From Lingula anatina (lineage: Eukaryota > Animalia > Brachiopoda): a stretch of 64,000 bases of DNA. Below, in pieces: positions 265 to 54,990 of the stretch (its first letter is position 1; each line of letters opens with the position of its first letter). Under the pieces are notes generated by a model that made no database searches, had not been told where the DNA came from, and saw only the letters and a program-made list of their open reading frames with translations. The position numbers and the translations under genes were made by a program. The stretch is taken from positions 26,722,001 to 26,786,000 of the forward strand of contig CM120642.1 of assembly GCA_051362555.1 (NCBI GenBank), in the 5' to 3' direction.

Positions 265-698
265 GGCATTCATGGAGGCGACGAAGGCTGCACAAACACC
301 AAACTGGATCTGGTATTCGTCCTGGACGAGTCCAGTAGCATCTGGGGCCCCGATTTCAAGGCCCAGCTGCAGTTTTTATCCCATATCACAGAAGACTTTA
401 GGATAGGCCCAGATGCAACCCAGATTGCCGTCCTGACCTTCTCTAACCGCGCCACGGATCACTTTTACCTGAACAGATACAACACGGCCGAGGCCCTGCA
501 AAAGGCCATTGTCGGTAGGTGAAGGATAATGTTCAATATTATGGTATTTTAGGGTGTGGTAGTGTTAGTTTCATATGTCATCTTATCTGTGTGTGTTAAT
601 TTGTCACCGCAGTTTGTTAATTTATCGTTGGCTTGATCCTATTCTCTTTCCAGCAACACACAAACACACACAAACACAAACACAGACACACACACATA

Positions 699-754
<56 letters not shown>

Positions 755-1948
755 GCAACATTTAGGCCTTCTGTCTTTCGTTTGGTGTGTTTCCAATGAT
801 CTCTGAAACTGAAGGCGCCGTTTTGGCTGCCTCAAAGTCTTGCAGGATGTGTTCCAATGCGCCGGATCTGCGGAGCAGAAAACAATCCATCCTGATGTGA
901 GGTACCATTTTCTAAAGATGACCATTTACGCCATGCTCGTCAACATAGTTTTTGTCATAATCTTCAGGTATTAGACAGCAGGGTGGTGGAACCTACACCA
1001 ATAGAGCCCTTGATAGGATGCGAGAGCGGTACTTCCTTGCTGCCAATGGAGGCAGGCCAGGTGTCCCCAAGCTGGGTATTATCATTACTGACGGTGCATC
1101 CCGCGACAAGGCCTTGACCGCAGCAGCGGCAGCAGAGGTGCGATGAAAATATTTAGATGTCATTTCATGACCATTTATGTTTGATAGGCCTAAACTTTTT
1201 AAATAGTTTTTGACTGTTTTAGCTCCCATGAAACAGTGGTCATATGAGACCAAAATAATGCGATATGGTTTCAAAAAAAAATATATATATAAATAAATAG
1301 ATAAATAAACAAATAAATGATATAAAATAATAATAATAATAATAAATCACCTGAATACCCGTAAACTTGTAGACTAGACATTTCTTCTTTAATACAATTT
1401 GTACCACACATGAGTAAATCATGAAAGCGAACCGAATCCACCTGGGCCGTTTTAGAAGGTCAATTCAAAGCAAATATACAAATCGGACGAGTGTAGTTTA
1501 AAGGGGTGATTGTTGGATCATAAGAATGAAAAAGCCCCAACCTGTTAGCCATGGTTCCCGTGTCATTACATAGGCCTATGTTTTTTCTCTCTCATTCGCA
1601 TAATATAATAGATCACCTTTATTGATTGTAATTATACCATGCCTCCAAGTCTGCAAAATGTCAATATAGAACTTTTAATAGGTGTACTTAAAAATTAAAT
1701 ATTATATTAAATATATTTTTACCTCCATCGTTTAAGATATTGATTATATTGATTTTGTTGTCTGAAGGCTCGCGCGCAGAACATAACTTTGGTGGCCATT
1801 GGTGTCGGTGCCAATATTGGTCGCGAGGAACTGAACTTGATAGCCAGCGAGCGCAAGGGAAAACCCGGGGATAAGTACACATATACTGTGGAGAATTACG
1901 AAGCCCTGGACAGCATTCGAGTCGAACTATCTAAGGTGACTTGTGAAG
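265..1948 (+). other. Gene 1 N-terminal von Willebrand factor A domain (3 exons), intact MIDAS
   Basis: [13 protein letters not shown] ... [10 protein letters not shown] ... [17 protein letters not shown] ... LVAIGVG ... ELNLIAS, with flanking cysteines. Confidence 0.93.
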
Positions 1949-4900
1949 GTGAGTAGGATCATGAAGGTATTAAAACTATATAGTCGTCAATCAATAAAGT
2001 TTCATATATCGATAGCTTAAGAAAAATGAACTGAAGTTAACCAGCCATTTTTGTCTGCTGACAGTTAGACTTCATCAGGGTTATCACTGCATTCATTTCC
2101 CTGATGAAGTCTGACTGCATTGTTTAAATTCAAGATGTGCATGCAGTGACAGCTAATTGCCTCTTTCTTATCACAGACCTCATTATTTTATTAATTGGAG
2201 AATTTCAGCATTTCTGATGAGCATTAATATAGTCAACATGTGCATGAACTGGTGTTCGTTTTGAATACCAACACTGTTTATAAACGTGGATAGGACACAT
2301 GTGTAAATATAATCAACTCGTTCCGATTTCGTTTCAAAGAACCGGCAAAATGGAGCCCATGGACTCCTTACTCTACCTGCAGTAAGACATGCGGGGACGG
2401 TAGCCAAACCAGAACCAGAACATGTCCAAAGCCCGGAAAATGTCCAGGAGCGGCCGAGCAGACCAGGCCTTGCAATCTGAGACCATGCCGTGAGTAAATG
2501 AAAACAAGGGAATATATAGCGCAATCATTTCCTTGGCATTTTGGTTTGTGCTTGCACTCATAACCGCTAGGTGGCGATAACGTACATATAGCACTAAGGT
2601 GACATTCTCGAAAATTCGTTTGTCAGATTCTGGAGCTGAAGTTTGAAAGTTATTCCGTACTGACGCATGGGGTAATACGAAGATTTGCGGGCAACGAATT
2701 CTCCAGAATGTGCTGCCAACACACCCACCAATCTTTAACTACATTGCTACTGCTTTAACTGTTGAATTATGTTCTGTGTTTGCGGAAAGAGTTCAGTCAC
2801 GATAAGAAAGGTGAATTTTCCCCTTTAATCAGTTTATTCATGCTTCACTGCTTCCCCACCGATTCTTTTAACTAATTAACGGAAGTTAAAGAAACCTGAA
2901 AGTGAAATAAAATAACATTCACTGCGGGTATTTACGTTATAATGTTAACCGTTTGCATGGATCACACACACACACTGGCCCCCTATGTCACAATAACAGA
3001 TGTTCTTAGTTTTAAACGGTGATCAGAGATAAACTTAGGGCACTGTAAATTGCATGACTGTGCACATTTTTCCCTTGTTCAATCTTGACAGAGCCGTTTG
3101 GGCCCTGGGGGGAATGGGGACCGTGTAGTCAGACATGTGGCGGAGGCAAAAGAGAAAGAGCAAGACCTTGTCTCCTCTTGGAATGCACGCCTGAAGACGG
3201 GGCACTTTATCAAGCTACTTTTTGTAACGAGAGACCGTGCCGTAAGTATACAGTACTTCACCTCACGTGTGCGCCACCTTGCAGCGAGGGAAGGCATGGG
3301 GATAGGTCGCATTGTTTGAATTGCACATTTGAAGCACCGTACATCCTATTTGTTAGCATTTTGACTTTTCATTGGGATAACCGTTATGATATGCATCCAT
3401 TGGAAAACGAACTTTCTTCGTTAATTATAATGCATGTTGGTCTAACCATTTAATCATTTGAAATGCAATTATTGAAGTATTGCTTACTGTCAGCGTGTAG
3501 TTCAATACTGTAATATTCATCCTGCTTACACTCGATCCTGCAAGTAGGCCTATAATGGAAAATTGACTGCTGAATTAAAACTCAGTGCTGCATAAGGTAG
3601 AATACTTATATAACTTTGCTTTATACTTCAGTATTAATCTTTCTTGTAACAAAACAATATAATTCTGCATGACCAGCAAAAATATCTTTACCTTACAAAA
3701 CATGTCGATCTTTTTTTGACTTTGTGACCATTTTTCATGATGTTAAATTTTGTTCTTCCAAATTGAACGCAAGGTGCGTGTCCGATTTAACTGTGAGTGT
3801 TGACTGCGTTATGTTGTGTGCTGACGGGGTTGATGCGATTCTAATTCGTTTATCTTGGGTGCTTTTGGGTGTGGTCGTCTGCGGGTTTTTAGGGTTATCA
3901 TTGTGTTCTTTTGAGTCTCGTGGCTTGAAGAAACCAGTTTTCGAGGTGTTCCAGATTTGCAGGACCTCCTAATCCATAACTGTCCGCAACCCAGTAACCG
4001 GAGTTTGATAACAGTTTTCTTTGGGGCATTTGCTAACCGTGCGACCTAACAGCTATCATCTGTATTGGATAATACTGGAATGAACGGTAAGAAATGAGAC
4101 TTTTTGAAGTTTTATTAAATTTAACTGACGCAACATTTGCGTAGCGTAACATCCTGTTTGGAGGACTCGATATTTACAATATTACTTGCGTGAAGTACAT
4201 GTAGCTTGACTTTGCTAGTCGTATGGAACAGTCTCAAAGAATGCGAAAATATGTATGTTGTACAATTGAAAAAGTTAAAAGATAAAGAACAAATATGTTT
4301 GCAGAAACGGAGACTCATTATATGTTCAACTGTATAATTTTAGGATCGAAATCAAATATATCAAAGGAACAGGAAAGAGTCTCTGTCGATTATTTGCAAC
4401 TCAGCGACACTCCGGTTGATACAATACGGAACAAAGGTATTACATTTAGTTTTAAAAAATGTAATTAAAAACAACAATGATGCTGATATGTGAATTTAAC
4501 CTTACATCTCTATTGATCTGAAGATTTCTAAAATGCACAGCAATACTACTTTCACTTATAAGCTAAAGAACCGTGACTCTGTTTTTAGTATTGGCCTCAT
4601 GGACCGCCTGGTCTGAATGGACGGAATGTTCGGTCACGTGCGATACAGGGCAGACGACAAGGTCACGTGACTGTCGTAACGGAGTCCCATCGACCGACTG
4701 TCTCGGGGACTCGATAGAGGTCGGAAATTGTAGCAAGCGTTTGTGCGAAACAGGTAAATAAAACGTTTTTTAATAACTTATTGACACGATGATACTTCTA
4801 ATGAATTTTTGAATTGACCCAAAACATTGATCGCAAAATTCGCAGAATTAATTTCTTTTTTAAATATCCATTGACACGAAGATGCTACAACTGATGAATG

Positions 4901-7900
4901 TTTGATTTAACCCAAAACATCGATCTCAAATTTCTCCACATTAAGTACATTTCCAAATTAATTACATTTCAAAAGAATATTGCTTTCATTAAACACTGCT
5001 CCAAAAAGGGTGTGCTCGATAATTCAGAATACATCAAAAGTTTTAACGTTTTTGTTACATAAAAACTGATTTCTACTTTCTAGCTTGGTGGACGCAGTGG
5101 AGTCAGTTTGGCTCTTGCTCTGCCACGTGTGGGGACGGTGTGAGAGCCAGACGACGTGACTGTCATGGCGGGATAGCTGGAATTAACTGCACTGGGCCAA
5201 GCTGGGATGAACAGAAATGCAACGAGAAAATATGTGGTAAGTCAGTCGTACCGAACGATATAAAAAATACGAATTTGTCTTTATGTTGAATTCAAACCCT
5301 GAGACATCCTGGTGGCAGAATATTTGTTTTAAATTTCTAAAACAGTAAATAGAGTCAAACTGTGACAGCTATTATTGCTCTGATATGTACACCAATTCAA
5401 CAGGCCAAATTTACTAACCACGGTAAATATTTCTATCCCCCGCATTGTCCCGCCCCTTGCCATTGTAATCTACATGAGTTACGTGCCTTGGGGTTAGCTT
5501 TCAAAAAAGTTAAAGAATCATAACCACACAGTCTATGGAGGAAGCATATACCAAGGAAAACCGCCAGGGCTTGAGTTTAATCGCAGTCTTATATGTTACA
5601 ATGTTTCACGTGGCTTTAGCAAAAGCGTCCATTTCCTTGTCGTACAATCTATCAAGGGTCGCTACAGGATATTCCCTTCCTTTAAAGACATGATCCCAAT
5701 CAGAGAAAAATGGAGATGACACTGATAAAAGCAATACAGTAACAAAAAAGTAGTTTGCTTTACTGAATATGATGATGACTAAGTCTCTGTAAGATACTAA
5801 GTCTAGAATGTTCCCAATAGCGTTTTGTCTTCGTATTCAAAACGACTGACGCAGCAAGAAAGATACCGCTTGCTTGTGGAAGATGCTCACTTCTGTCATA
5901 AGCACTCAAAATGATAGGACACGTATATATCACCAGCCTTCATTTTTTGGCGTTTTCTTTAGTGGCTGCGTGGAAATCATTTCAACCCACTGGTAAGTAA
6001 ATTATATCTGCATTCATGGATTATTTAGCCAACGCCCAACTTAAGTTGAAGATTAGTGGATGCAATTCAGTATTAAGCTAGATACGGGTAATACTGATCA
6101 GAGATTGTGGCAAAATGGATTTCGAGTCCGGTTCTCGAGAAAATATAATGTAGTAGAGGGTAATTACCGATATATACATGTACATTTGAAAGTTACTCAA
6201 GACAAACCGTTAATGAAGGTTATAGATACTTGTAATACATAAGCGACACCTATAATTGTTTCAGAGAAGTAAATTTTTGTATATCAGCAAAACGTTAAAT
6301 GGAAAACGCAACTCTACAACTATTACCGAGAGGGCGAGGAAGGAGCCAGAAAACTGACATATGGATAATGTACACTTTTATAACGATTAAATGGTTGGCA
6401 CGATAACGAAGAAAACCGTTTAAGTTTGCAACGTGTAGCCGCCATTGTTGAGTGGGAGTTACATTTAGAGAAACCGGAATTTGTATGTTTGCCCATTTGA
6501 AGTCTTAAAACTGAATATACGGCGTCTAGAACTATATACAGGTGTATATTGTATCCATCAAATTATCCGTTTAACATGCATTGGTTGCTGAGTTTTATTT
6601 GCTTGTTTTATCTTTGGCCATTGTGTTTATGATTTTCAAGAACTGTGGAATATTGTCCAGTTTGACGTCACACGGCGGCAGAGAAGACTGTCACGTGGTC
6701 TCGATTCAGTTGCTTCTCCTGGGCAATGATAAAGGACAGTGCCTTTGATGAGCAATTTGAAGCGAGCACACGCTTAATTCAACTCGTCTTGAAGATGCTA
6801 TTAAGAGAAAGTGAAATGAATTTGAAACAGCACTGCTGTACTATTATGGTATTATATTATGGCGCAACGAAAAAACGATGCCAACATTATTCTTTACCAT
6901 AATGATTATGCAAAAATATGGTAAAATCATAGTAACCCAAAGTCGCAAAGCTGTGTGTTCATATGCTGGAATTGAAATTCTTCTCACCCGCACATTTGGA
7001 ATACTTGGGCATTGTGTCACACACCGTGTGTTATGTAATGCAGGAGCGACGGCAAAGATTGTTGAACCAAGTTGGCATGGCCCCCGTGGCCATAGTAATT
7101 TGTTATGACAAAACCAATAAACTTTTAACCAAATCAGTGAACCATACAGACGTGCCAGAAAAACATACAAAGTTATTTTATTCTTTAAATGTATTTCAAC
7201 TTTCTATAACAGGAAAGTGATTAAATCATCAACTGCTGGTACCAAATGACAAAAGAAAACAAATCTAAATTGATTAACTAAATTGCCCGTTTGTTTAACT
7301 GAATGAAATAAGTGCGCAATTATAAAACCACCAAAGGATTATTCTAAGCATTAGAATAGCACTTAACGTTAATCTGTTGCCGATCTTGGATAATGGTACT
7401 GAACAATTTAAAGTTCATCCCTCTGAAAAGACGTTGGCATCGAAACGAAAACCATTTGGTTAATTTAATGATAATGTACTGAACCATACTCCTGCGACCG
7501 CCCGTTTTACTGTTTTATTATATAAACTTAAATAGTGTGAATTTTTATGTGAGTTGGTAGAAGTGTAACTTTTGAATATAGAACTTAATTTATTTTGTCC
7601 CTCTAAGAATTAATAAAATATAATTCAAATATTTTTCTAACACGAACTTCGGACTGTTTCAGCTGTATGGAGTGGCTGGGGGCCGTATGGAAGTTGCTCA
7701 GTCACCTGTGGACGGGGAGAAGCCCTGGGTACACGTAAATGTATTGGTGGGTCCTCCCCCCAGGACTGCCGCGGGCCAGACAGGAGAGCAAGACCGTGCA
7801 AGAGGCAGTCGTGTCGTAAGTGTACAACGATATGTCTTTGTTGGTGATTATGAAGATATGGTTCTCCGCAATTAGCATCTTTTTGATTTTGTAGTCGTGC

Positions 7901-8410
7901 AATGTATGTCCTGGGTGCTCAAAAAGTGAATGATTTTCGATATGTCCTGATACAGCATTTGGGACAGTTTGACAGTTTTTAGTCGAGAGTTGGCTAGATA
8001 TAAGCATATATATCAGAAAAATATCCTAAAAACAATTATACTTTTACGCAATTGTAAAAATTAAGGATGTCAATGTCGAATGTTCATTTGAAAACTCTTA
8101 GGGAAATTTAATTTACATTGCCTACATTATCATTTGAAAACAACCGCAAATGTATGGCAAAATGTGTTGTGAAAATAGGCAACTGCTTTCTCAGCGTTTT
8201 TTTTCATTGACTTACAACATCAACTAAAACGTTGTAGCAAGTATCAATAAAATCATACATCAAAACTGTTGCATAATGGTAGCGCAGAATTTTTTTCAAC
8301 TGAACGGACGTCGTTGAGACACCTCAACCCATTTAGAAGTGTGTGTAGAGAATGGCGCACGCTGTTTTATCCAGCGCAATAACTTGGTGGTTGCAGTTTT
8401 CACACTTTGC

Positions 8411-8443
<33 letters not shown>

Positions 8444-11400
8444 GAATTTTTAATTTGTTTTCTAGCTGAGTGGACCCAGTGGAGTCATTTTAGTCAATGC
8501 TCAGTGACATGTGGCAATGGAGAGAGGAGCCGTGTTCGGACATGTATTGGAGGAGAAGCAGGTTATAGCTGCCGAGGAGATGCAACTGAATATATCGAAT
8601 GTAATCAAAGGCCATGTTGTAAGTAAAGTGGCTTTCGACCTATATAGTGAAAACCTGATTAAGCACAATATCTGCATTGGCTATCAATGTTACTACATAG
8701 CACAATGGTTTTCAACTTGACTATCGATTCCAGCACAATTTGTATCCACTTTAGGTCGATTACAATCACAAGCACAGCTACTATGATCTCAAGTGCAGTG
8801 TCTGTAATCTCAAGTACACCCAAAAATAATAGAAAACGTAAACGTCTTGAAAACGAGTTAAGCGACTGCACTGGCGATATTGTTTTTTTTTTTTTTTTTT
8901 TTATTTCGATATCAGAATTATCAAAACCATTTTCATGGAAGAGTGCACGCTTTGTTACTTATGGTGAAACAGCCCTAACTATTTACTGGTGTTCTTTTAG
9001 CAACTTGGAGCCAATGGGGTGAATATAGCTCATGCTCGGTGTCGTGCGGAAAGGGCCTGAAGGTTCGGAAAAGGAAGTGCGTCTACGGCAGAATTGGTTC
9101 TGACTGCCGAGGAGAAGATAGGCAGCAAAAGTCGTGTCAAGCGGGGTCTTGCGGTTGGTATCTATTACTGAAAGCAAATGACTTTGGCAGCTACACAGTT
9201 ACACTTAATTGCTTAGAGATAAATCCGGAGATCAAGGCTGTGAACACTACAAAATATTTTCAATCTAATTCAGTTCAAATTGGATTTTAAAGGAAACCTG
9301 GTGTTGTAAATTCAAAACATTTGGCATAAGACAATCATGTACAAAATGCTGTAGCCGTTATGTCTCCACTAAGGGTATGACCTTACCAACAAATCAAACA
9401 AAAATCTACCTTACAGTGGTCATATATAACATGAAATACATCATTACTACAAAGGGGACAGCACACTGTGCATTGTAAAGGTAGATTTTAATCCCTTTTT
9501 TTTTTTTGCAGTTTGAAACAACTGAAGGTTGGTTTCAAATTTTCCGGAAATATACTAGTACTTTTTTTGCCGCTGATCACTTCCCAAAAATGTGACTAAA
9601 ATGCGGTTTATGAGAACGAAAATTGTGGTTTAATTTACAGAAATACACGCAGAAGACCTTCGAGTTGGCATGGGGCCACTGTGCCCAGATGGAATTTCTT
9701 CAGATGGGACGTGTATCACCCCAGCTGTTGAAAGCAATTTAAGTGACCAATCACCGTGTAACACGCAACAATGTAGTAAGTAAAGCTAGCCGCCCATTGG
9801 ATTTTTAGTCAACGAGGTAAAAACGTTCCAATAATGTTAGTCCTTCTATTTGCCAGCGTTGTAAATAAAATGCTATCAACATCATTAATATATGTCTATA
9901 GCAATATTTATTTTGCTGTGGTAGAAGTAGTATATCTTCAGCAGTGCAATTAAAAGACCAAATATACTGGTATGTCACTCGTTTGTAGCAATCAGTGCGT
10001 TTGTTTCAGATATATGGGGGGAATGGAGCTCTTTGCGATCTTGCTCAGTGACATGCGGAAATGGAACTCAGTCCCGAACACGAGTTTGTGAGGACATTGA
10101 AAATAACGTTCAGTGCAGTATACGACAGACAGATGTAAGATCCTGTAATGAAGGGGCATGCCGTAAGTCTGTGTGAAGCATTTGTCGCAGGGACCGGGGT
10201 TTAGTGAGCTGGTAGGCGTGATATGGAATAAAAAAAGCTCGTTTTTATGTGTTGGGTGAAAGGATATGAGTGAACATCGTTTCAAGGACATATTTTGTTC
10301 TATATGAAAACGTTCAACGAAAATATCATTGGTCACATTGTCAAAATGGTGTACTATTTCCGTAAAATATATAGATCTTTAGCAGATAGTGAATTACTAA
10401 TATATTTCAACTAACCTCCTCGTATGCATAAATATTTTTCATATTTCAAATAATTTGCTTTTATACATATTATCATCTGAACGTTTGGTGTGTTGTGTAA
10501 GTATAACTTTCTTTCAAATCAACACTGATTGCAGTCATATATACACTACACCTCTTTGTAATACCAACGTTTTCTGTAATGGCAGAATAATAAGTTAAGC
10601 ACATCTGTCTTTAATTAAATAACTATTTGCACAACTTTTAACTTTTCAATATTGACTAAAGTGAACTTACCACACGTCTGTTTTGATAATTCCACTTTTT
10701 TTATCATGCACAGTCTTTAATAATGTAATACACAACAATGTAATACACGGGAAACACGTTATATTGCACATCAGCACCCACACCACACCCACAGTTAAGT
10801 ACGTATGCTGAGAGAACTGTGGCCACACTTCTGTTCATATCACCCACCTTTTACCCCCGCAGCCGCATGGACCGCCTGGACTCCTTACGGCGCATGCTCA
10901 GTGACCTGCGGGTCAGGGACGCAGGTTCGATCAAGAAGATGTGAGGAGGGAGTGCCTGGAGTAGATTGTCCAGGGAGTGAGAGAGAAAGCAGGCCATGTA
11001 ACCTCGGGTCCTGTAGGGTTCCAGGTAACAAAAATATTAAAAGTCAGAGTTGATGCCAGGCTTAGTAGAGTATTTAAGCGCATGTACGAAAAAAATAAGT
11101 TCCAGGTAGGTTTGATTAAGGCAATGAAAGTAACACATAGTTTTCTTCCCTTCAATCTGGAAGCAGCTTTTGGGATGTTTGGCGATGGCAGCAAAGGGCC
11201 TGCATAGAAAGCATGTGCTAGTTTGTAACCCAGAAGTAAAATCGGTATCTGTGCATTTAGAAATTCACTACCGATGTCATGATTTTATTATACATATTAG
11301 ATTAAGAAGTTGCATGGGTACATGTAGTTCAAACAGCGCCAGGGTAGGTGTTACTCGTAGAGGGAATTTTGTCAGTGTGCATGAAATAAAGTCCAACGAA

Positions 11401-21089: not shown

Positions 21090-21120
<31 letters not shown>

Positions 21121-26000: not shown

Positions 26001-26271
26001 TGGCCCACCCCAAACGCAATCCTAACACATATGGCGCGCACCCTAACGGGTCAGATGTCAAACATCATCACCTCACTTTGGTGAATCTTATTAAACCTTC
26101 TGCCTCTTAAGTCAACCTGCCTTGGTGTCAAAGCTGCCCCTCTTCCCAAGCTTCGCCATTCACTCGGGCGCGGGAAGGCAGAAGTCGGGGGCTGATTTAT
26201 GCGTTGAGCCCCACGCCCAGGGTCGAGTCGGCATGCTGAGTCGGGCACGATCGCGCTGGGGCGCGGATAGG

Positions 26272-32200: not shown

Positions 32201-35200
32201 CAGAAGGAGGTTGAATTTTTTGGGAGGGAAAACTGGTGCCTCTAAAACTAAGGAAAGGGAGGGTATGTGGCTCAATTTTCCCACTAAAATTTTAATCAAA
32301 ATAATCACCCTGCCTTCTACAGGACAAGAAAGCCAGGCGCTGTCAGATGTGGCGTCCACGTGGGGAGCGTGGAGTCAGTGGACAGAATGCAGCAAGACCT
32401 GTGGCGGAGGGACACGGGGACGGTCAAGGCTCTGTGAAGGGATAACAGAGAGATGTGAAGGGACGGCAGAAGACGTGGAGCCATGCAACCCAACACCATG
32501 CGGTGAATTACATTTTTATAACCCTTCCAGAGCGTGTTAAGCCAGGGTTTCTTGTTTGGGCGTGCTTTCAAGCAATTTTCAAAATGAAATGACAGTTCAA
32601 TTATTACAAATAAAATGAAATATTGTTTAAAAAGAAAATTAAAAAAAAATGAATAAATGAATAATGAAACTGCGTTGCCGACATCCTGGCTATCGTTGTC
32701 GCCAAAATGTTTCACAAAAAATTATTTATCTTGAGTGCCATCAACATTGTATTTTTATTCGTATAGCGGAGTGGACGACATGGTCACCATGGTCACCTTG
32801 CCCTGTCACGTGCGGCCAAGGTCAGGCGGTCAGACGCAGGAAATGCCAAAATGGTGCCCCTGGTGTGGATTGTGTAGGACTAGAAATAGAGGGGAAGACA
32901 TGTTTTACTATAAATTGCCGTAAACCTGGTGAGCAAACATTTGTCTTGGATTCATTCTTGGGTGTTTCAAAGGAATCACTTTTTTAATATGAATAATAAG
33001 CATCCTTAATTATTGAAAGCATACATAATACCAAAATTGATTTAAATATTCAGGACAAAAGTCAGGCTATGAATTTTGTTAAATTGTGTATCGCATTGTC
33101 CAGAAAAAATCTTTATTCAGTTCTGTTTCTTAGGCGACCCATGTCAAACCCAAAAGATCGATTTGGTGTTTGTGGTTGACGAATCTACAAGTATCTGGCA
33201 ACCGAATTTTATGAAGCAACTTAAATTCCTTTCCCGTATAACTGAAGATTTCGAAATCGGACAAAATGCCACGCAGATTGGTGTTCTAACATTTGCAACC
33301 AATGCCAGGGATCAATTTTACCTCAATAAATACCAAACAGGAAAAGAAGTAAGGGAAGCAATTAAAAAGATTGTCCAACCAGACACGTTTTCTACAAATA
33401 CGCATAAGGCTATCAATCTTATGCGCATGGACTATTTCCTGTCAAAAAACGGTGATCGGCCGGATGTTCCTAACGTTGCTGTAGTAATAACAGACGGCAA
33501 GTCTCGGAACCAATTAGCTACAAAGAAAGAGGCGGCCGAGGTATGACCCATTCTTAAATAGTTTCTATATTAAACATTTAACACCTTACATTTGATTTCT
33601 CGTCGGCTTTACAGTTTCTATTTTTGCCAAAAAAAAAAAAAAAACGCAAAAAGGTATCCCAAGAAATAAATTAACCTAATATTGGCTATAAGCAGACTTT
33701 GATTAAAGATAACATACAGTATAATTTTTTGACCGACAGAACTAAAAATTGCGGATGAAATAAATGAAGATCCATCATTTTCAGGCCAAGAATCAAGGTA
33801 TCACAATGGTGGCTGTTGGAATCGGCAAGCAATACTCTCTGAACGAGCTCCGTAACATTGCCAGTGACCACGCAGAGATGCCGGGTGAGAAGATGGTGTT
33901 CACGGTGGAAAACTATGACACACTGGCTGACTTGAAGGAACAAATATCCAGGATAGTATGCCCAGGTATACAATAATAAGACCATTACTGCAACAAGCGT
34001 TTAGATACATTATCAAAATTACCCTTCCGTTCAAAAGCTATCTCATTGATTTCGTTTTACTACAAGTCAGGCTGAATACGTATAATTTTCCTTGACAGAT
34101 AAAAAATTGCATGTGTATATGCACTAAAACACCAAAAACTGTGGCTTCTAAGGTTGAACGTAAGTAAGTGCGCAGTGTACCTTAATACAGGGAAGAATCA
34201 AAACAAAATATCTTGCTTGTTTTTGCATATTAGCTATTTGACGTCAAAAAGCTCCGGAGCCATCAAAACAAAATAGGTTTTATCTCGTTTATTTATTTAT
34301 TTGGGGGGGGGGTGGAGGGGTGAAATGAGAGGCCCTTGGTTGCTGTTACCCCTTGTGTAACAGCTTGTAAGAAACAAAATTTAAGATACGTCTTTGTATT
34401 CCACAGACAAACCCATCTCACAGCCTGGATGGGGCAAATGGACCATGTGTAGTAAGACGTGTGACGGAGGTATAAGGACCCGCCGTTGTGACGGCGCAGT
34501 GGAACAGTGTAGAGGCAGAGCCCAGGAAATACAGCCGTGCAACACAAACCCATGCCGTAAGTAAAGGGTAATTTCACTATGAACGTGAAAGACTGCTTCC
34601 TCAATATTGATGGTGACTTGCACATCTGTAATTGACATAAATGTGATTGGAAGAGGCACCAACTGCATTGTACGTAGCTGCAGAGGTTTACATCAGGCAC
34701 GTAGGAAGCGATTTCTATGTGGGGCTGAACCACTCTGGGAAAATACTTTGGTTACGGGGTGGGGTTAAGGGGAAAATAATTAATGTATTTGAAGTAAGAC
34801 ATCGATTTATTGGGGTGTCGTTCAGCGACGTAATATTCTTATGACCTATTAAAGAATACATTTTACTGAAAATATCTGAATCCCATGCTCATAGCGCTTA
34901 GGATTTACTAGCATTTGGTTGAAAAAGTCTGAGCTCTTGTTCAAGCAGAGTAAAAATACGATATGTTTTAACATTCAGCCAATTGGGCGCCTTGGTATCC
35001 GTGGGGAACGTGTTCCGCCACGTGCGGGGTAGGGCTCCAGGTCAGGACACGCTACTGTATAGCCGGAGTAAGCGGAGTCGACTGCCTTGGGGACGCCCAG
35101 GAACGACGCGCGTGCAATACGACCAAAAACTGCGGTAGGTTTGCAGTTTTCTTTTACATCTGCATTTTTATTAATTTTCCAATGTCTAACGTACGCCGTT

Positions 35201-35861
35201 TAAGTTTTGTCTGTAGCATAACTGTCAATAGGCAAGTATTACCGCGCCATTTGCTGGCCCCAGACTGCAGGGAAGCGGATTTTTCACTCGATAAACTGTT
35301 TACCAGATAAAATTTGGACCAATCTCGAGTACATGTTATGTTTTTCTATGGATTGACATCGTTTGTGATGTGATGCTAAAAAGCCAAAAACCGAATTCGT
35401 AAATTGCATTTGTATGGAATGTACCTTGCATTACATGTATATGTATTATACGACTTTTTAAAAATAAAAGTTGACTCTGTAAAAAAAGATAATTTTAGCA
35501 CCGAAAATCTTTGGGAGTTAAGTCATGTTCACGTCTATTTCGACTAAAACCAATGAAAAATTCGTACCATAGGTTTTGTGGGAGATAAAAAATACTTTCA
35601 ATTATAAGGTGACGAGTTTCGCAGAATCAACTGTATATATTTGTTTGATATATATATACAGCATCATGGGCCACGTGGACCCAGTGGAGCGAGTGTTCAG
35701 AAACATGTGACGAAGGTTTCCAGTCGAGGACACGTGTGTGCGAGGGTGGCGCCCCTGGTGAGGACTGCCCAGGGAAATCTGAAGAAGGCCGAAAGTGTTA
35801 CCTCAAACAGTGCCGTAGGTTGAGTTTCCTTACATGAATTTTGGTCAGATTTAATTTTCTT

Positions 35862-35919
<58 letters not shown>

Positions 35920-38900
35920 TATCGTTTGCTTGTTTGTTAATCTTTGTATTTGCATTATGTGTAGAAAATGATTATTCTAAGTCACTCGGGGTCTTTTTAG
36001 GATCTGTAGCGATTGTCAATCACCTTGCGGTAACTCTGTTCAGTTAGATTTGTTCTTTGGCATTCCCTTCATCTCTTCTATCTATCACAGCATTGGTGAC
36101 CTCCTGTGGTCATTGGATTGGAGCCTTGGTCGAAATGTGTTCAGTTTCTAGCGTATGTGATAAAGTTCGATTGCTTTTTGCTGATCTGTTTCTCACCTAC
36201 AGCATTCTGGGTGTCGTGGGGAGAATGGGGCGACTGTTCAGCCACGTGCGGTAACGGCACTCAGTCCAGACGGAGGCGCTGTAGCGGAGGGTTCCCTGGA
36301 AAGGACTGTCTTGGAGAGCCAGAGGACAGCAGGCAGTGCATCCTCACACAGTGTCGTAAGTTGAAATCTGATCAAAATAGTATTTTTTTAGGGGGTGGAG
36401 GGTGAAGTGACGCACCAGTTTCATATTCAGAGTCACGTTTTATATTTAGACAGTCGCTGGTAAATACAGCTATTCATACGCTATAAGTTGTATTGTACGA
36501 ACAAGGGGGGGGGGGCAAAAACAAGAACGGAGGGATATCCCATACATACACTCACACGCACACATACACACGCGCACACACAAACATTCTTGCTTTCATT
36601 AAGTCAAGTTACTTCAATAAAGTTGATAATGTAGACAATTTCCGTGTACCAAAATCCAATTACATACGTAACACGTGCTCTTGTTTTGTTTTCAAAATGA
36701 ACAGCATTCTGGAATCCTTGGTCCACTTGGAGTGAGTGTTCAGCAACGTGTGGCAGTGACGGGTTTCAATCACGTACGCGTGTTTGTAATGATAGCACAG
36801 GTGCCGGTTGCGATGGAGAATCCGAGGAAGGGCAACAATGCAATAACAAGCAATGCCGTAAGTCAGTATGAACAAGAGTCTGTCATTTAAGACATTTGTT
36901 AGACAAATGCACCTTGAGCTTCAGAGATTACTGGATACTCATTTCAAGCAACGTATATCTATAAAACATAACGTGGAAAAACTTCACCAGGAATGCAGAA
37001 GGCGTATTCGATTAATTTTCTACTGAGGGCCATGTAATCGCATATATCCTCACTGTTCCATTCGCACATACAAATTTGTATATGATAGGAAATATTTTTG
37101 TATATATAAATAATAAAAGGTATATCAATAATGGTAATGTTTCACTAGCTGTACTATATTGGAACACGGTAAAGATCATTTATCTGTGTTATATATCGAA
37201 ATTTTATACATGTTAGCAACCTGGGGCTCCTGGGCTCCCTGGAGCGATTGTTCAGTAAGTTGTGGCGACGGCTCGCAGACCAGAACACGGCTCTGTACAG
37301 ACGGGATCCCCGGTGTGGACTGCATTGGAGATGGGGAAGAAATACAAGAGTGCAGGGTGAAACCTTGCCGTAAGTGGACATTTTATATATAAGTTGGTTA
37401 AAACAGCAAGCAATCAGAACTTTAAATCGTACTTACACTAGAAACACACCTCTTTCAAGGTGAAGGAATCACGTAATGAAGAGACCATCTGAATTTATCT
37501 TATTTATCATTTTTAAACACGAGTATAAATCCCCAGATATGGTACCGCAGTGTTTGCCGGAAGGGCCTTTTAATAGCGGTCATCTATCCATTCCTTTGTA
37601 TCTCGCTTATTATTATTTTTTCAATATCAGCAACCTGGGATTCTTGGACGCCGTGGACCGACTGTTCTGTCACATGTGGCAGTGGCTGGCAGTCCAGAAC
37701 TCGGTTATGTAAAGATGGCGTCCCCTCCGTAGACTGCCTGGGAGCCGGGAAGGAAGAGCAAGAGTGCAATATAATCCCTTGTCGTAAGTAAAAAATTAAA
37801 ATGTAAGTTGGTTCGGTTCGAAAAAAGCAGTCATTCCAAACAGATAGATGAACGGCATATATGTGAGACTCTTGGGCGTCCCGACGTGTAGGAACCTAAT
37901 AAGCAGAACCCACGCGCACGCATTTTCTGGGTGCAACGTGTGAGGGATGTATTTTTAAAAAAAGGAAAAGCTATAGAAACGCAGTGATACTCCTGATTTA
38001 TCAAATAATTTGGTTGTGTGTAAAAATATTTGATCTGTAAAATAATGATTCACTTCATGTTGTACTGGAATTTACCCCTATCCTACAATCACAAAGTCAT
38101 AAAAGGTTTAGGTGTCCATACTTCACAGGAAACGATATGGACTTCATGAACCCCCGCACAATAATAATAATAATTATAATAATAATATTTAGCAATCTGG
38201 GGCTCATGGACTCCCTGGACCGACTGTTCGGTGACATGTGGCAGTGGCACCCAGACCAGAGAACGGCTGTGTATAGATGGCGCCCCCGGTGTGGACTGTC
38301 TTGGAGAGCAGGATGAAGAGCGGGAATGTCATATTATACAATGTCGTACGTTATAAATTTATTTATCTGCTGTTTGATATTCTTTTACATAATCATATAT
38401 GTATGAAATGTCATTATTATTTATTTGATTATACATTTGAAATGTGTATGATATAGCAACTGGATCTAAGATCGAGTTTTTTGTAAATGGTAAATATTGA
38501 AAATACATCAAAATACCCACAGACTTTATCTTCGCTCTGAGAAAATGTCCATTCACTGTTGTATGAAGTTGTCTTTCTGCAGCGTCATGGGCCTCCTGGA
38601 CGCCATGGAGCGAGTGTTCGGCTACATGTGGTGACGGGTTTCAATCAAAAACACGCTATTGTGAAGGCGGAGTGGCCGGTGTGGACTGTGTTGGTGAATC
38701 CGAAGAAGGAAGGAAGTGCAACGTCAAATCTTGTGGTAAGCATACACTTTGTACAATTGTGATTCTTATTGAACTTAAGATCAGTTTGTCCAATATACAT
38801 TTTGAGGTATATATCGCACTTATAAGTCACCCTTTACATTTTATTGTCTCCGCCTATAATACGCATCTGCGTACACATCTTATTGCCAAATATATTTATA

Positions 38901-41900
38901 CACACGAGTACATGTATTATTTAACCAGATATTTTAATTCACCGCTATCTATGTCCCGCTGACAGAAGAAACAACAAACACACAAAACCCCGTAGGTCTA
39001 TTTTAATATCACTATTCTGTGTTACATCCTGAAAGGGCATTTAAAATCTTTATTTCTGATTACGATGAGAATGAGGGAGTCCCAAAACCAACATCAGAGA
39101 GAATCATTGCCCGAATGGGAACGGACAGATAAAAAGAAAAAATTCAGACCCTGTAGTAGGAACAGTTAGAGTGTGCACTAATATCCATATTTTTTCATTT
39201 TTATGTGTACATCAATTAACAGTTCAAGTTGCGCATTTGTGTCTGCTTGACTCTTTTCAATGCATTAATTTTGTATATACAGCTTATGCTTGCACGCTTC
39301 AAATGTAATCATTACCTTATATCTGCATGCGTCGTGCTGTATAACTTATATATGTATCCCATAACGTCATGCCAACTGAAGCATCTTGGGCAAATTGGGG
39401 AGAATGGTCAGCTTGTTCAGCAACGTGTGGCAGAAGCTTCAAAGCACGCTCAAGGGTATGCGACGGTGGTGCCCCTGGTGTCGATTGTACTGGAACGTCC
39501 GAGGAGGGGGCGCATTGCTATTTAAAGCCGTGCCGTAAGTCAACGGTCTTTCCTTGCTCTAACAGCCGCAGCAAAGCAGATTTCATTCTTTGTTTACACT
39601 AACAAAACGTATTTTATATTATTTATCCAACAGCTTACGCTTGAAAGCGGCAATGGTTTTGAAAATAACCGCATGCGTAAGCTTTTTCCAATCAGTTTCT
39701 GTCATTCAATTTTTAGTTCAATGCATCTATTATCTTTGACATCTAACTCTAATTTTATTTCTAACAAAAAACATATGACTTTGTTTGTGAAGGTAATCAC
39801 TAGTTTATCTCAATATTAGCGTCTTGGGTATCTTGGTCGCAATGGAGTAGTTGTACAGTCACATGTGGCGGTGGTCTACAGATGAGAACCAGATTGTGCG
39901 ACTTTGGTATTTCTGGAGAGGACTGCACTGGTGCTGCAGAAGATAAACGCGCATGCGCTACTACAGAATGTGGTATGAATTGCACGTGCTCTCTTCGCTC
40001 ATCCTTCTCTTGAAAAAACAGAATGTACACAGATATTGTCTTCGGTCTGCACAAAGGCAATTTATTGCACATTGGCAGCTGTATCATGTTAATCTTTTAC
40101 ACAAATATCTGCTTGAGTTTATTTGAAATGTTCATTGTTTTAACTTCAATTCATACAGGCCAAATATAAATGGCCTTTTTGCGTATGGACACATATGTAA
40201 ATATCCAGGTGCGTTTTTCTCTAAAATCAACTGTTTGTTATTATTATTTAGCTTCGTGGGCTACCTGGAACGCATGGGGCGCCTGCTCTGCCACTTGTGG
40301 TTACGGCAACCGTGCCAGAACCAGAACATGCACTGGTGGTGTGTCTGGTGTAGACTGTAAGGGAGATAATATCGAGCGACGGACTTGCACCGTTGGACAG
40401 TGCTGTGAGTGAACGGTGTGAGAGAATTGCTGTGTAACAGTAAAATAATCAAAGCTGTTTATTCAATGATGACAATCAATGCCTTTAGTGTAAGAAACTT
40501 TCCAATTTATTTGCTTTGACATAATGCAAACTTACCGTCTTTAAACATGCTCATTGCGACTTCAGCAAAAGAGGAGCCCCCTGCCGTCCAAACGTACTTA
40601 ATTCTAAATATCAAACCAGCATTTTATTTTCATATATATTTTAACCTTAGCGTCTTGGACGACCTGGAACCGCTGGGAACCGTGTTCAGTGTCCTGTGGG
40701 CGCGGCATTCAGACACGTACACGCACCTGTCTGCCCGGTATTGGAGGCATGGAATGCCCGGGTCTGCGGGAACAGAATCGTGGGTGTGACTCGGGACAGT
40801 GTCCGGAGCGTAAGTAGGACTACATCGTGATAATTGTGATATATAGACGGTTGGCATAAAAAAATTTACCCAGCATTTAAACAGTAGGCCCTATGCACTC
40901 TGAGACATGGCTTAAAATACCCAGTTGCTCATATCCATGGGATATAATGCAGCCTACATAATTTATGAAGAAAATTTTCGGAATAGTTATACGTAGACAT
41001 AGAAGTGAGAACGATTTAAATGTCACCTGCCTGTTATAATACATACATACGAGTTTATATCCGCAAACGTTAAATTTCAGTACCTGCCCCTCTTCCTCGA
41101 GACGCACGTGACGGTAAGTAACCTCTCTCTCAGCAATACTCTTAGACCTACTACAAGTATAACTTATAACCAAGTCAAAGTTTTCATAATTTTATCGCAT
41201 ATATGTAATATTTGACATTTAGGTTGATGAAAATGAACAGTTTGTTATCCTTTTAGAAAAAGTTAAAAGTCGGAAGTCACATCTTTCAGATGTATGCTGC
41301 AGCGATCTTGAAGAAGCCGATATAGTGTTCGTATCCGACAGCGTGGGTTTCGGAGGCGTTCGAGCCAACAAGGCCCTTAAATTTGTTGAAGATGTCATAA
41401 GCGACCTTCCAATTGATTCTGGCCGTGTTCAGGCTGCATTGGTGTCCAGCGAATGTTTGTCCAAGATGGGATTCTACCTCAATACTTATAAAGAAAGGAA
41501 TGAAATGACCTCGTATTTTCACAATCTTCCTGGTATTTATAAGTTATATTGTAATATTATATCAGAGGCTTTCTTTGCAATGATTTTTTTTTTTGTCTGG
41601 AAGTCATTAAAATAAATTTTTTCTTTAAGATGTATTACATTATTTCTAGGCAGGTTACCATATTCATGTGTAATAATAAGAATATTGCAATGAGACATGT
41701 ATAGATGTGATTGCTATTGTTATACAGTTTTGATTTTTAAACATTGTCTTGTAGAGTTTTCATTTTTTATCTGATCTATTTGCAAATAATAATGAATCAA
41801 AATATAAGGTCCTTTAATTGTGATGGTATTATACAAAGAATAACTGCCTTCTTTTTCAGTTGACGAAGTGGTCCCTCCAATGATTGCAAGCATGCGCAAA

Positions 41901-42226
41901 AAGTACTTCTCTCCCGAGCATGGTGCTCGAACAAACGTACGACGTATTGGCGTCATCCTTCTTGACGACGACGCCAAATTCTCATACGACGCCATGGATG
42001 AAATAATGGCAAGCAAAGCTGAAAACATTGAACTTTTTGCTGTTAGTTTCTCTAAAAACATCAACAATTTCAAGATGAAATTTATAGCAGACGATCCAAA
42101 ATCTGCTCACATGTTCAAGACGGTATTAGGTACCCGAGAGGAGTTGCATGAACTAAGAAAGGAACTCAGTAGTTCTATATGTAAAAGTGAGTATGGTTTT
42201 AATTAATAAAGCAGAGTTGTTTTCAT

Positions 42227-42289
<63 letters not shown>

Positions 42290-44136
42290 CTTGACATTTA
42301 ATATGGAATATTTCAGTTTCGAAGGTGTGCCTAGGTAGAAATGCGTTCTTTTTTCAAAAAACTAATATCTCATATAAGATATGTGAATGAAGAAGTGTGT
42401 AGTCAGGTGTGTCGCTTCCAATTAACTGAATACCAGGTTTGTTACGCTGCTGCATTATGTAATATGAAGTAATTTAATTGGGTAGTGCTCCTTTGGGCAG
42501 GTCAAAGCTTGGCTTTGGCAAAGCACGGTTCTGTCAAAAAAGTATCCATATGTCGGCAACTACTGCATAGAAGAATTTGAAATTTTGCATGCAAGTGGTC
42601 GATTTTGCAGTGTGTAAAATGAGCTATGCAGTGCTTTGCAAGTTTGTTAATCTGTGGCAAAATGGCGCGAAAAAGACAGACATTGCCAGACAGTTAATTG
42701 CGCCAAACGAAACGGTCCGCACAGTTTTATAGAATAATGCCCAGACTGATGTACCTACATAGAGGCCACACCCAATGTATTAAAATCTTACCACCAGAGT
42801 ACAGGACCCACTGTCTTTCAGGATATGCCGTTGCAACTGAACAAAAACCACCCAGTCCGTTCAGAATGAGGGGTAAATTGCCATCAAAACGCATTTTTCA
42901 AGGCCCTTAGCGAACACCAAACTGGTTTTTGCAGGTTAGCATACCAGACGACCTCCGAGGATCCCACTGTAAACAGCAAAACATCGTTGTATGTTTCTCT
43001 AATGAATTAGGGACCATGACCGTTTTTGGGTTGAACACTGAAACCTCGTGACTTTCTTTATTGAGGTCAGATTTCACCTGTACCGCTCAACTAGTCAAAA
43101 CAGAGTTTACAGACATCCAGAAGAGGCCAACGACGAAGTGTGTGCCGCCTCTAAAGTGACTTAGGTCATTAACAGTCAGTATTTGAAGTGGATACCACAT
43201 TGGTGCCAAAACATCAATGGCAGTCATCGACGAAAACCTGAACCAGATTAAATAAAGGAATAATCTGGGAACCACTTGCCTATCATTTGATAGGGGGCAC
43301 CTTAAGAACAATTTTAGGTTGTAGGGTGGGATTGCCGGTTCACACAGAGCAGTTTTAATAACAGATTACTTAGAGAACCAAGGGAATGAACAGCTACCTT
43401 GGTCATCAAAACCGCCATATTTGAACCACGTAGACAATATGTGGGTAGGCCATTACTCGCCAAATGAATGGCCTACATGTCCTACAACAAAACTGAGCCA
43501 AATTGGACAGATTTCGACCGATGCCTGGAATGTTATTCCAGATTGAACTCTAAAAACATATCCCAAGGAATGCCTTGCCGCTTGAGAGCGCTGGTAGCAG
43601 CCAGAAGAGGTCAGGCGTAACAGCGACTGTTACTGTGACTAGACACTGACATGAGGGTCCTTTGTGGAGCGTGTAACTCTTTTACAGACAATAATTTGGA
43701 AAATATGGAGATCTAAAATATCTCATTTAATGGTTGCCGTATGACGTAGAAAAGGCAATGTGTTTTTGTTTGCTTCTCTGGCGAATTCCATTGACGAACT
43801 GATGTCACAATGACATCAAAGAGATAATTAAAAGTTATTACAACACGATTTTAATCCTTATTTTCATTTATCAGTCAGTAAAATAGGAAAAAAACTGATG
43901 AAAAATGATTTGGAAAAAATATTCCATATTAAATGTCAAGTCTGTATATATATATATATAATTGTGTAGCATGAAATTTCAAACCAACTTTTCCTATACT
44001 CTCAATTTGCATTTCAATCGCAGTACAATATCAGACAGACAGGGGAATGATGCCCAAAATTAATTTTGAATCAAAACCCGTTTCAGTTATTTATGTTGTT
44101 TGTTCTTTCTTCTTGACAGGGCTTCGAAAAAGGTAA
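26272..44136 (+). CDS. Gene 2 (complete): secreted signal peptide-vWA-TSR2-vWA-TSR13-degenerate vWA protein, paralogue of gene 1 (~1412 aa)
   Basis: Exons: 26272-26364 (MFSGVIGAFLMLSWVKVCSG-QL, signal peptide-like; upstream in-frame ATG at 26233); vWA1 30751-31173, 31452-31629; TSR 32323-32502, 32767-32928; vWA2 33134-33540, 33785-33965; TSR 34407-34556, 34979-35134, 35662-35814, 36203-36355, 36705-36857, 37217-37369, 37631-37783, 38193-38345, 38583-38735, 39382-39534, 39820-39972, 40252-40404, 40651-40809; microexon 41081-41113; vWA-like 41290-41532, 41860-42186; last exon 44120-44136 (RLRKR*). Sum is 4239 nt, in frame; all introns GT-AG. Confidence 0.9.
35864..35917. repeat. (TA)n microsatellite
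   Basis: Perfect AT run in gene 2 intron. Confidence 0.95.
42229..42285. repeat. (TA)n microsatellite, left flank of the Tc1 insertion
   Basis: Perfect AT run that continues on the other side of the element at 43945-43960. Confidence 0.95.
42286..43944 (+). mobile_element. Decayed Tc1/mariner DNA transposon (1659 bp) in the last intron of gene 2
   Basis: Perfect 28-bp TIRs CAGACTTGACATTTAATATGGAATATTT (42286-42313 / 43917-43944) flanked by TA. Broken transposase fragments: HRAVLITDYLENQGNEQLPWSSKPPYLNHVDNMW (~43341-43445; cf. Tc1 WPxxSPDLNPIENxW) and MPCRLRALVAARRG (~43570-43612; cf. SMPRRLxAVIxAxGG). Confidence 0.9.

Positions 44137-49258: not shown

Positions 49259-49293
<35 letters not shown>

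Positions 49294-54934: not shown

Positions 54935-54990
<56 letters not shown>

What the first reader, a model, noticed from the sequence alone, without database searches (positions are those of the whole stretch)
265..44136. Tandem pair of secreted active-vWA / TSR rod / dead-vWA / polybasic tail proteins: candidate undescribed extracellular fibre, adhesive or matrix system
Seen: two paralogues share one plan, with MIDAS-intact N-terminal vWA (one in gene 1, two in gene 2), 15-18 tandem TSRs, a Pro-rich microexon, a MIDAS-dead vWA-like domain and a basic tail. There is no TM helix, GPI signal, collagen repeat, Ig or EGF. Known: vWA+TSR combinations occur in apicomplexan TRAP/MIC2/CTRP (membrane-bound) and in hemicentin (with Ig/EGF); vWA proteins occur in marine adhesives and shell matrices (e.g. 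mussel PTMP1). I do not recognise this dumb-bell architecture as a named family. Inference: a long TSR spacer with a cation-dependent binding head and a non-MIDAS docking end could bridge or polymerise head-to-tail, possibly as a heteropolymer of the two paralogues.
Basis: partly seen in the sequence, partly recalled or inferred. Interest (0 to 1): 0.8.

Follow-up and report, generated by a model that had tools for sequence, protein, structure and literature searches.

The report
Splice-adjustable two-headed matrix spacer proteins
Two neighbouring genes of the lamp shell Lingula encode predicted secreted proteins with a string of repeats between two different head domains; one gene changes the length of that string by skipping exons, and the proteins likely serve as spacers that cross-link tissue matrix rather than pairing with each other.

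Summary
Both genes give open, canonically spliced frames: MIDAS-intact vWA, TSR array, microexon, MIDAS-degenerate vWA, short tail, with no TM or collagen region. The window is Lingula anatina. Gene 1 is already in RefSeq under automatic names ('adt-1', 'coadhesin').

Corrections:
- No transcript model carries all 18 TSR exons. Seven RefSeq isoforms and RNA reads show cassette skipping (about 4-13 TSRs), plus three alternative signal peptides.
- Gene 2 had no exon coverage in 3 of 3 runs where gene 1 was abundant, which argues against a heteropolymer.
- The basic tail is not conserved in the one outside relative with the same plan.
- The dead vWA is not a local invention. It sits in a 59-domain clade that is the last vWA in 47 of 48 multi-vWA cases, mostly TSR-free secreted live+dead vWA proteins (one named, from a bivalve).

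Best reading: a matrilin-like matrix cross-linker with a splice-tuned TSR spacer inserted into an older live+dead vWA family. Neither protein was identified in two shell proteomes. The closest described analogue is the Pinctada byssal TSR/vWA protein. Verdict: new variant of a known kind.

The parts
265..1948 (+). Gene 1 N-terminal vWA with intact MIDAS (exons 265-514, 968-1137, 1768-1948); three alternative signal-peptide exons lie upstream of the window
   Evidence: identical in 7 of 7 RefSeq isoforms
2340..19827 (+). Gene 1 TSR cassette array: 18 phase 1-1 exons (17 six-Cys TSRs, one degenerate at 9641-9775), alternatively spliced
   Evidence: skipping junctions
4344..4436 (+).
   Evidence: present in 7 of 7 RefSeq isoforms, tblastn 100%
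20606..20620 (+). Gene 1 15-nt microexon
   Evidence: its letters lie between 19827 and 20823 in reads of X5, X8, X9 (table 5c)
20826..21634 (+). Gene 1 C-terminal MIDAS-degenerate vWA (exons 20826-21068, 21308-21634; GC-AG intron between)
21975..22970 (+). Gene 1 last exon: 7-residue basic tail, stop at 21997, 3' UTR to about 22970
   Evidence: joint 21634>21975 and depth profile
26272..26364 (+). Gene 2 signal-peptide exon
   Evidence: matches RefSeq XP_023932357.1
30751..31629 (+). Gene 2 vWA1, intact MIDAS
32323..32928 (+). Gene 2 two TSR exons between the two live vWAs
33134..33965 (+). Gene 2 vWA2, intact MIDAS; sister to vWA1 (internal duplication)
   Evidence: support 100/86
34407..40809 (+). 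Gene 2 array of 13 TSR exons
   Evidence: from sequence only, no RNA joints listed
41081..41113 (+). Gene 2 33-nt Pro-rich microexon
   Evidence: splice sites and open frame; not RNA-confirmed
41290..42186 (+). Gene 2 C-terminal MIDAS-degenerate vWA (exons 41290-41532, 41860-42186)
   Evidence: 57% identical to gene 1 C-domain
44120..44136 (+). Gene 2 last coding exon, 5-residue basic tail and stop
   Evidence: open frame and position matching gene 1; not RNA-confirmed

Best explanation
These are two paralogous Lingula genes for predicted secreted proteins in which an exon-skippable TSR array separates a MIDAS-intact vWA head from a conserved MIDAS-degenerate vWA end, and they likely work as matrilin-like matrix cross-linkers of adjustable span, each in its own tissue or stage. 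Shown: exon structure, MIDAS states, the gene 1 3' end, TSR exon skipping, alternative signal peptides (RefSeq models), constraint on the dead domain, and its membership in a clade of C-terminal dead vWAs. Inferred: (1) the live head binds an acidic residue of a matrix ligand, probably collagen, through Mg2+/Mn2+/Zn2+, as integrin I domains, matrilin A domains and PTMP1 do; (2) the TSRs form an extended spacer (about 5 nm each, recalled), so isoforms with about 4 to 13 TSRs would span roughly 20-65 nm; (3) the dead vWA is a cation-independent docking or oligomerisation module inherited from TSR-free live+dead vWA proteins, taking the role that the coiled coil has in matrilins; (4) tandem duplication gave gene 2, which doubled its vWA-TSR unit and is expressed separately.
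For: Architecture and MIDAS. Both vWA domains fold confidently with an alignment (most 10-residue blocks pLDDT 83-98; two C-domain blocks 67-69). The nearest solved folds of that model are collagen-binding integrin alpha1/alpha2 I domains, PTMP1 and collagen VI A domains; sequence hits to P0002 are collagen VI alpha3 and PTMP1. Variable rod: the 5 of 7 RefSeq isoforms with a C-domain have 13, 13, 13, 12 and 10 TSR exons. Read loose ends join exon 13 (ends 11024) to 17854 in X8 (21 reads), X9 (17) and X5 (12), exon 4 (ends 2489) to 17854 in X5 (6), and exon 13 to 19675 in X5 (6). The outside relative P0021 has only 3 TSRs. Dead module: 59-domain clade of 523 domains, support 0.984; 100/99 in a 51-row IQ-TREE subset. 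MIDAS is 5/5 in 1 of 59 against 387 of 464; an extra Cys is in 54 of 59 against 5 of 464; it is the last vWA in 47 of 48 multi-vWA cases. Constraint. Separate expression. Matrilin A domains bridge collagens cation-dependently (PMC2962504, abstract).
Against: No ligand, tissue or localisation is known. The runs are coded, and binding to collagen rests on analogy with about 30%-identical folds. Many live vWA domains bind non-collagen ligands. The TSR rod was poorly modelled (pTM 0.38; 459 of 980 residues under pLDDT 50), so an extended shape is recalled knowledge, not shown. The skip junctions come from loose-end consensus lines (51 more rows not shown) and could partly reflect allelic exon loss or pooled animals; three paths in one run (X5) argue for splicing. 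Two of 7 RefSeq isoforms end in exon 19 without the dead vWA, so it is not in every product. Gene 2 had at most 0.22x sense-compatible depth in any of 8 runs laid, so its full structure is sequence-only. Taxa of most clade members are unknown (one named, Sinanodonta woodiana).
Confidence: 0.55

Rival explanations
1. Head-to-tail self-polymer of gene 1 product: the live MIDAS of one molecule grips an acidic residue on the dead vWA of the next, giving filaments or nets whose repeat length is set by TSR splicing.
For: At the dead site the MIDAS Thr position is Glu/Asp/Glu and the T-D-G loop carries D-D-D in all three dumb-bell proteins; the C-domains are net acidic (-7, -6). The live-then-dead order is fixed across the family. 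Vertebrate all-TSR properdin forms head-to-tail rings (recalled).
Against: The D-D-D run is not kept in the wider clade (only the MIDAS Asp, 51 of 59). Two RefSeq isoforms lack the C-domain. In TSR-free relatives the two domains are adjacent with no spacer.
Confidence: 0.17
2. Heteropolymer or obligate pair of the two paralogues.
For: Tandem arrangement, same orientation, same plan; the rods differ in charge (+9 against -14).
Against: Gene 2 exon bins at 25918-26504, 30614-31200 and 32375-33548 have depth 0 in X8, X9 and X5, where gene 1 3' bins reach about 10-135x summed. No read-through between the genes.
Confidence: 0.04
3. Component of an external secreted material (shell or periostracum matrix, pedicle cuticle, mucus or adhesive), Ca2+-stabilised like the Pinctada byssal TSP-1/vWA protein.
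For: TSR and vWA domains are abundant in Lingula shell matrix lists. The Pinctada byssal protein with 24 TSRs and a vWA is linked to Ca2+-dependent extensibility.
Against: Gene 1 and 2 accession stems (XP_0134191, XP_02393235/6) and 5 peptide motifs have 0 hits in the 2026 shell-proteome supplement. The one VWA+TSP row in the 2015 table (06725: 437 aa, pI 10.3, 8% acidic) does not fit gene 1 or 2 (pI 7.6-9.0, 11-12% acidic). Pedicle cuticle and mucus proteomes were not available.
Confidence: 0.14
4. Soluble coelomic-fluid protein in defence or clotting: the vWA head binds an activated partner (as factor B/C2 or CR3 do) and the TSR rod binds surfaces or glycans (as properdin or mindin do).
For: The domain pairing echoes complement factor B (vWA) plus properdin (TSR) (recalled). 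Isoform diversity and three first exons suggest regulated use in several cell types. Integrin alphaM I domains are among the solved-structure hits.
Against: No protease, CCP or lectin domain. The relatives carry matrix-type automatic names. No expression data point to haemocytes.
Confidence: 0.1

Closest known systems
Pinctada fucata byssal TSP-1 protein (pfu_aug1.0_532.1_65503; PMC4597212)
   Same: Signal peptide, long TSR array (24), vWA with MIDAS, no TM; proposed Ca2+-dependent role in a marine fibre.
   Different: It has one vWA, with an intact MIDAS, and a Gly/Ser low-complexity region. The Lingula proteins have a vWA at both ends, the last one degenerate, and no such region.
Matrilins (and AMACO/VWA2)
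   Same: Secreted adaptors with two vWA domains separated by disulfide modules; cation-dependent collagen bridging (PMC2962504 abstract); nearest Atlas structures for the C-domain, TM about 0.8.
   Different: Matrilins use EGF spacers and a C-terminal coiled coil; neither is present here. The spacer is TSR and the second vWA is MIDAS-degenerate.
Mussel PTMP1
   Same: Secreted two-vWA collagen-associated matrix protein; sequence and fold hit.
   Different: No TSR rod. The dead-domain profile does not hit PTMP1 at E<=10 (37 sequences listed).
Unnamed lophotrochozoan (live vWA)1-3 + terminal dead vWA proteins (automatic names such as 'VWFA domain-containing')
   Same: Same terminal dead-vWA clade and same order of domains.
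   Different: Of 58 proteins with the clade domain, only g1, g2 and P0021 have TSRs between head and end. The family is delimited here; I found no paper naming it.
Coral coadhesin (B3EWZ3), hemicentin, ADAMTS adt-1, apicomplexan TRAP/MIC2
   Same: They share TSR and/or vWA domains; 'coadhesin' and 'adt-1' are RefSeq's automatic names for gene 1.
   Different: The defining TM, F5/8C, Ig/EGF or metalloprotease parts are absent.

Membership tests
Matrilin | vWA domain(s) with MIDAS | tested here: met
   (N-terminal domains only)
Matrilin | EGF repeats between A domains (recalled) | tested here: not met
   no EGF family on P0016, P0013, P0002; all spacer exons are TSR-type or the linker
Matrilin | C-terminal coiled coil PF10393 | tested here: not met
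   not hit; the protein ends 5-7 aa after the last vWA Cys
Hemicentin | tandem Ig array, G2 and EGF domains (recalled) | tested here: not met
ADAMTS (RefSeq name 'adt-1') | prodomain and reprolysin metalloprotease domain (recalled) | tested here: not met
   7 of 7 isoforms fully accounted for by signal exon, vWA, TSR and linker exons; Pfam
Coadhesin (RefSeq name) | F5/8 type C domains and TM helix besides TSR and vWA (recalled; the paper passages do not list the domains) | tested here: not met
TRAP/MIC2/CTRP | TM helix and cytoplasmic tail (recalled) | tested here: not met
   hydropathy; RNA-confirmed stop exon in gene 1
Pinctada byssal TSP-1 type | signal peptide plus long TSR array plus vWA | tested here: met
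Pinctada byssal TSP-1 type | Gly/Ser low-complexity region and a single MIDAS-intact vWA | tested here: not met
Pinctada byssal TSP-1 type | component of a secreted Ca2+-stabilised fibre | not testable with these tools
   no tissue labels; no pedicle or mucus proteome
Live + terminal dead vWA family (delimited here) | last vWA in the dead clade: broken MIDAS, extra Cys, at the C-terminus, preceded by live vWA | tested here: met
Lingula shell matrix proteins | peptides in shell proteome | tested here: inconclusive
   0 hits for accession stems and 5 motifs in the 2026 supplement; the 2015 table gives no sequences, and its TSP rows do not fit by pI or domains

The most novel reading that the evidence does not exclude
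The terminal dead vWA is an overlooked, ancient lophotrochozoan polymerisation module that serves as ligand for the live MIDAS head. By inserting an exon-skippable TSR rod between the two, Lingula built a cation-switched head-to-tail filament or mesh whose period (roughly 20-65 nm) is set by alternative splicing: a tunable extracellular molecular ruler without collagen.
Probability: 0.15. Interest if true: 0.75.

Novelty: new variant of a known kind. Interest (0 to 1): 0.45.

Why it matters
It corrects three misleading database names (adt-1, coadhesin, matrilin-4). It delimits a conserved C-terminal MIDAS-degenerate vWA module shared by dozens of uncharacterised secreted invertebrate proteins, of the broad kind that recurs in shell, byssus and glue studies. 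Gene 1 is a natural experiment on that module: the same two heads are held apart by about 4 to 13 repeats, so one can test directly what a dead vWA docks onto and whether splicing sets matrix spacing. If the ends bind each other, it would be a collagen-free, length-programmable matrix polymer of interest for biomaterials.

Tried and rejected
- No genome is held for the window, so further paralogues and the upstream signal exons could not be mapped.
- A search with the gene 2 C-exon found nothing among 130 candidates; weak evidence only.
- No indexed RNA holder was listed; raw runs were laid instead.
- In one search nearly all reads on gene 2 came from an intronic repeat.
- A single-sequence AlphaFold run of P0018 gave pLDDT 31.6 and was discarded; that isoform also lacks the C-domain.
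- XP_013391776.1 (820 aa, matching the length of gene 2's 3' half) was considered as the gene 2 shell-matrix product. It was rejected: it has a Reeler domain and its 5 listed peptides are not in gene 2 (compared by eye).
- Read-through of gene 1 into gene 2 was rejected: coverage ends near 22970.
- Pseudogene status of gene 2 is disfavoured by 24 intact exons but is not excluded by RNA.
- The basic tail as a functional hallmark was rejected: P0021 has an acidic tail and most relatives stop just after the last Cys.
- Ten full-text searches listed no paper describing this architecture or the dead-vWA clade, judged from listings; subscription journals are not covered.
- Three look-ups of earlier findings returned nothing.
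Full report
Observation. Six-frame scanning and splice-site mapping give two tandem + strand genes with open frames. Gene 1 (265..21997, 25 exons in the window, 1329 aa) is vWA, 18 TSR-type exons, a 15-nt microexon, a second vWA and a 7-residue tail. Gene 2 (26272..44136, 24 exons, 1412 aa) is signal peptide, vWA, 2 TSR, vWA, 13 TSR, a 33-nt microexon, vWA and a 5-residue tail. All TSR exons are phase 1-1. The three N-type vWAs have all five MIDAS residues. The two C-terminal ones keep the two Asp but lose the Ser/Ser spacing and have Glu at the Thr position. Pfam confirms VWA on 11 of 11 vWA pieces and TSP_1 on the canonical TSR piece given; the degenerate exon 9641-9775 has no hit. There is no TM helix or collagen run.

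Identity. The gene 2 first vWA exon hits Lingula anatina XP_023932357.1 'matrilin-4-like' at 98%. That model has 6 differences in 591 aa and ends early through a frame-shifting upstream acceptor before TSR exon 34979. Gene 1 matches RefSeq isoforms X1-X4 and X6-X8 (7 seen; X5 not retrieved), named 'adt-1' or 'coadhesin', with 0 mismatches apart from the last residue of the terminal exon in two of them. These names come from shared TSRs; no protease, Ig, EGF, F5/8C or coiled-coil family is hit.

Splicing. The 7 isoforms use three different signal-peptide exons. All include a linker exon at 4344-4436 and none includes TSR exon 3092-3241. They take the paths 13-14-15-20-21, 13-15-20-21, 13-21 or 13-(14)-16-17-18-19-stop, the last lacking the dead vWA. 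RNA reads laid on 17700-35300 (4 of 9 listed runs; 6-30% of each read) confirm every gene 1 junction from exon 19 to the stop exon, including the microexon and the GC-AG intron. Loose ends add exon 13 to 19 (21, 17 and 12 reads in X8, X9, X5), exon 4 to 19 (6 reads, X5) and exon 13 to 21 (6 reads, X5). The loose letters map uniquely to 10992-11021 (0 mismatches) and 2460-2489 (3 mismatches). Fifty-one further loose-end rows were not shown. So the rod carries from about 4 (inferred from one junction) to 13 TSR exons, never the 18 in the genome in any model seen. Another Lingula TSR protein group has isoform lengths of 820-931 aa in steps near 50, so TSR skipping is probably not peculiar to this gene.

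Expression. In X8, X9 and X5 gene 1 is abundant, while gene 2 exon bins in the same lay are at depth 0; X2 shows only a trace of gene 1. In X1, X3, X4 and X7, laid on gene 2 only, exon bins show at most 0.22x in X7 and a few opposite-orientation reads in X1 and X3; no sense joint is listed. Gene 1 was not examined in those four. Co-expression thus fails in 3 of 3 informative runs; tissues are unknown.

The dead domain. Among the top-listed read differences of the diverged runs X8 and X9, 16 of 25 changed C-domain codons are synonymous against 0.27 expected (p about 1e-4; only the 40 best-supported of 191 differences were shown). A profile of the two C-exons against 1.84 billion representatives gave 386 hits at E<=0.001, of which 150 were listed. 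One, P0021 (634 aa, unnamed Logan record), has the same plan with 3 TSRs and an acidic tail. It scores 275 bits on a C-domain HMM against 96 for the next non-Lingula protein, and its dead domain is closer to gene 1 (56%) than its live domain is (47%). A tree of 523 vWA domains from 158 of 162 proteins (18 isoform or cluster duplicates dropped) puts the three dumb-bell C-domains in a 59-domain clade (FastTree 0.984). A 51-row subset under LG+C20 separates 18 clade members from 33 others at 100/99, with long branches among them. In that clade MIDAS is complete in 1 of 59 (others 387 of 464). An extra Cys is present in 54 of 59 (others 5 of 464). 57 of 59 lie within 40 aa of the C-terminus (others 59 of 464), and 47 of 48 in multi-vWA proteins are the last vWA. 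Most carriers are 400-800 aa proteins, many with signal-peptide-like starts, with 1-3 live vWAs directly followed by the dead one and no TSR. One is named, from the bivalve Sinanodonta woodiana. Atlas look-alikes are vWA clusters of molluscs, cnidarians and chordates without TSR. The set was selected with a dead-domain profile, so its size is not a census. Inference: the dumb-bell arose by insertion of TSR exons between the live and dead domains of this older family. Gene 2's two live vWAs are sisters (100/86), an internal duplication.

Structure. AlphaFold2 on a 26-row alignment models both vWAs confidently and the rod poorly. Foldseek's best matches are integrin alpha1/alpha2 I domains, PTMP1, collagen VI and VWF A domains. 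Whether the two ends bind could not be modelled.

Mechanism. I put 0.55 on a matrilin-like cross-linker: a cation-dependent head on a matrix ligand, a TSR spacer whose span is set by splicing, and a cation-independent terminal docking module. The anatomy and splicing are shown; ligands and shape are inferred. Rivals: self-polymer 0.17, external secreted material 0.14, soluble defence protein 0.10, heteropolymer 0.04.

Literature seen. PMC13425148: abstract, passages, section 8, supplement searches and part 1 of 132; neither gene's accession stems nor 5 peptide motifs occur. PMC4595640: passages, supplement searches, part 9 of 24; one VWA+TSP shell protein (06725) does not fit by length, pI or composition, but no sequences are given. 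PMC4597212: abstract and passages; a secreted 24-TSR + vWA byssal protein, the closest described analogue. PMC2962504: abstract. PMC3748352, PMC12817120, PMC9168380: passages. Ten searches listed nothing on this architecture or the dead-vWA clade. Domain lists for hemicentin, ADAMTS, TRAP, coadhesin and properdin, and the 5 nm TSR length, are recalled.

Verdict. A real feature, correctly read. It is a new variant of known secreted vWA matrix adaptors rather than a new class. The fresh points are the splice-tunable spacer and the conserved terminal dead-vWA module. The heteropolymer idea is not supported. Interest 0.45.

Noticed in passing
window 42270-43960: About 1.66-kb element with perfect terminal inverted repeats, inserted in a TA run in gene 2's last intron; many diverged RNA reads map to it. 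Likely a multi-copy DNA transposon.
   Followed up: partly
window 35778-36197: Spliced joint with CT..AC ends (GT-AG on the minus strand), 4 reads from 2 starts in X1: an antisense spliced transcript over gene 2 TSR exons.
   Followed up: no
window 21069-21307: GC-AG intron inside gene 1's dead vWA, supported by reads in 3 runs; the matching gene 2 intron is GT-AG.
   Followed up: yes
window 5963-5992: 30-nt stretch with good AG and GTAAGT flanks, in frame and Trp-containing; a possible microexon, absent from 7 RefSeq isoforms.
   Followed up: no
window 26272-35134 against P0002: RefSeq's gene 2 model differs at 6 of 591 residues while gene 1 models are identical to the window; either another allele or a third, near-identical copy. 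Unexplained.
   Followed up: partly
window 46776-49833 (+): Two exons of a small EF-hand protein gene, judged from D-x-D-G-x-G loops in the translation; not scanned against Pfam.
   Followed up: no
window about 51860-57335 (-): Exons of a Ser/Thr kinase with a C-terminal RRM/UHM-like part, resembling UHMK1/KIS (name recalled; translation).
   Followed up: no
window 50001-58000 and 60001-64000: CpG counts fall to 10-22 per 2 kb against 44-77 over the vWA/TSR genes; fits gene-body methylation of housekeeping genes against unmethylated tissue-specific genes (recalled).
   Followed up: no
runs X8, X9 against X5 on window 17700-23000: Under one species label, X8 and X9 reads are much more diverged from the window (about half in the 90-95% class) than X5 reads: distinct populations or cryptic species.
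   Followed up: no
PMC13425148 supplement, XP_013391770-76: A Reeler + TSR shell protein has seven isoforms of 820-931 aa in steps near 50 aa, suggesting TSR cassette splicing in other Lingula genes too.
   Followed up: no
P0034, P0033, P0123, P0090, P0058: Five other unnamed proteins among the hits mix vWA and TSR in different orders (for example vWA-3TSR-3vWA, or alternating TSR-vWA); none has a domain in the dead clade.
   Followed up: partly
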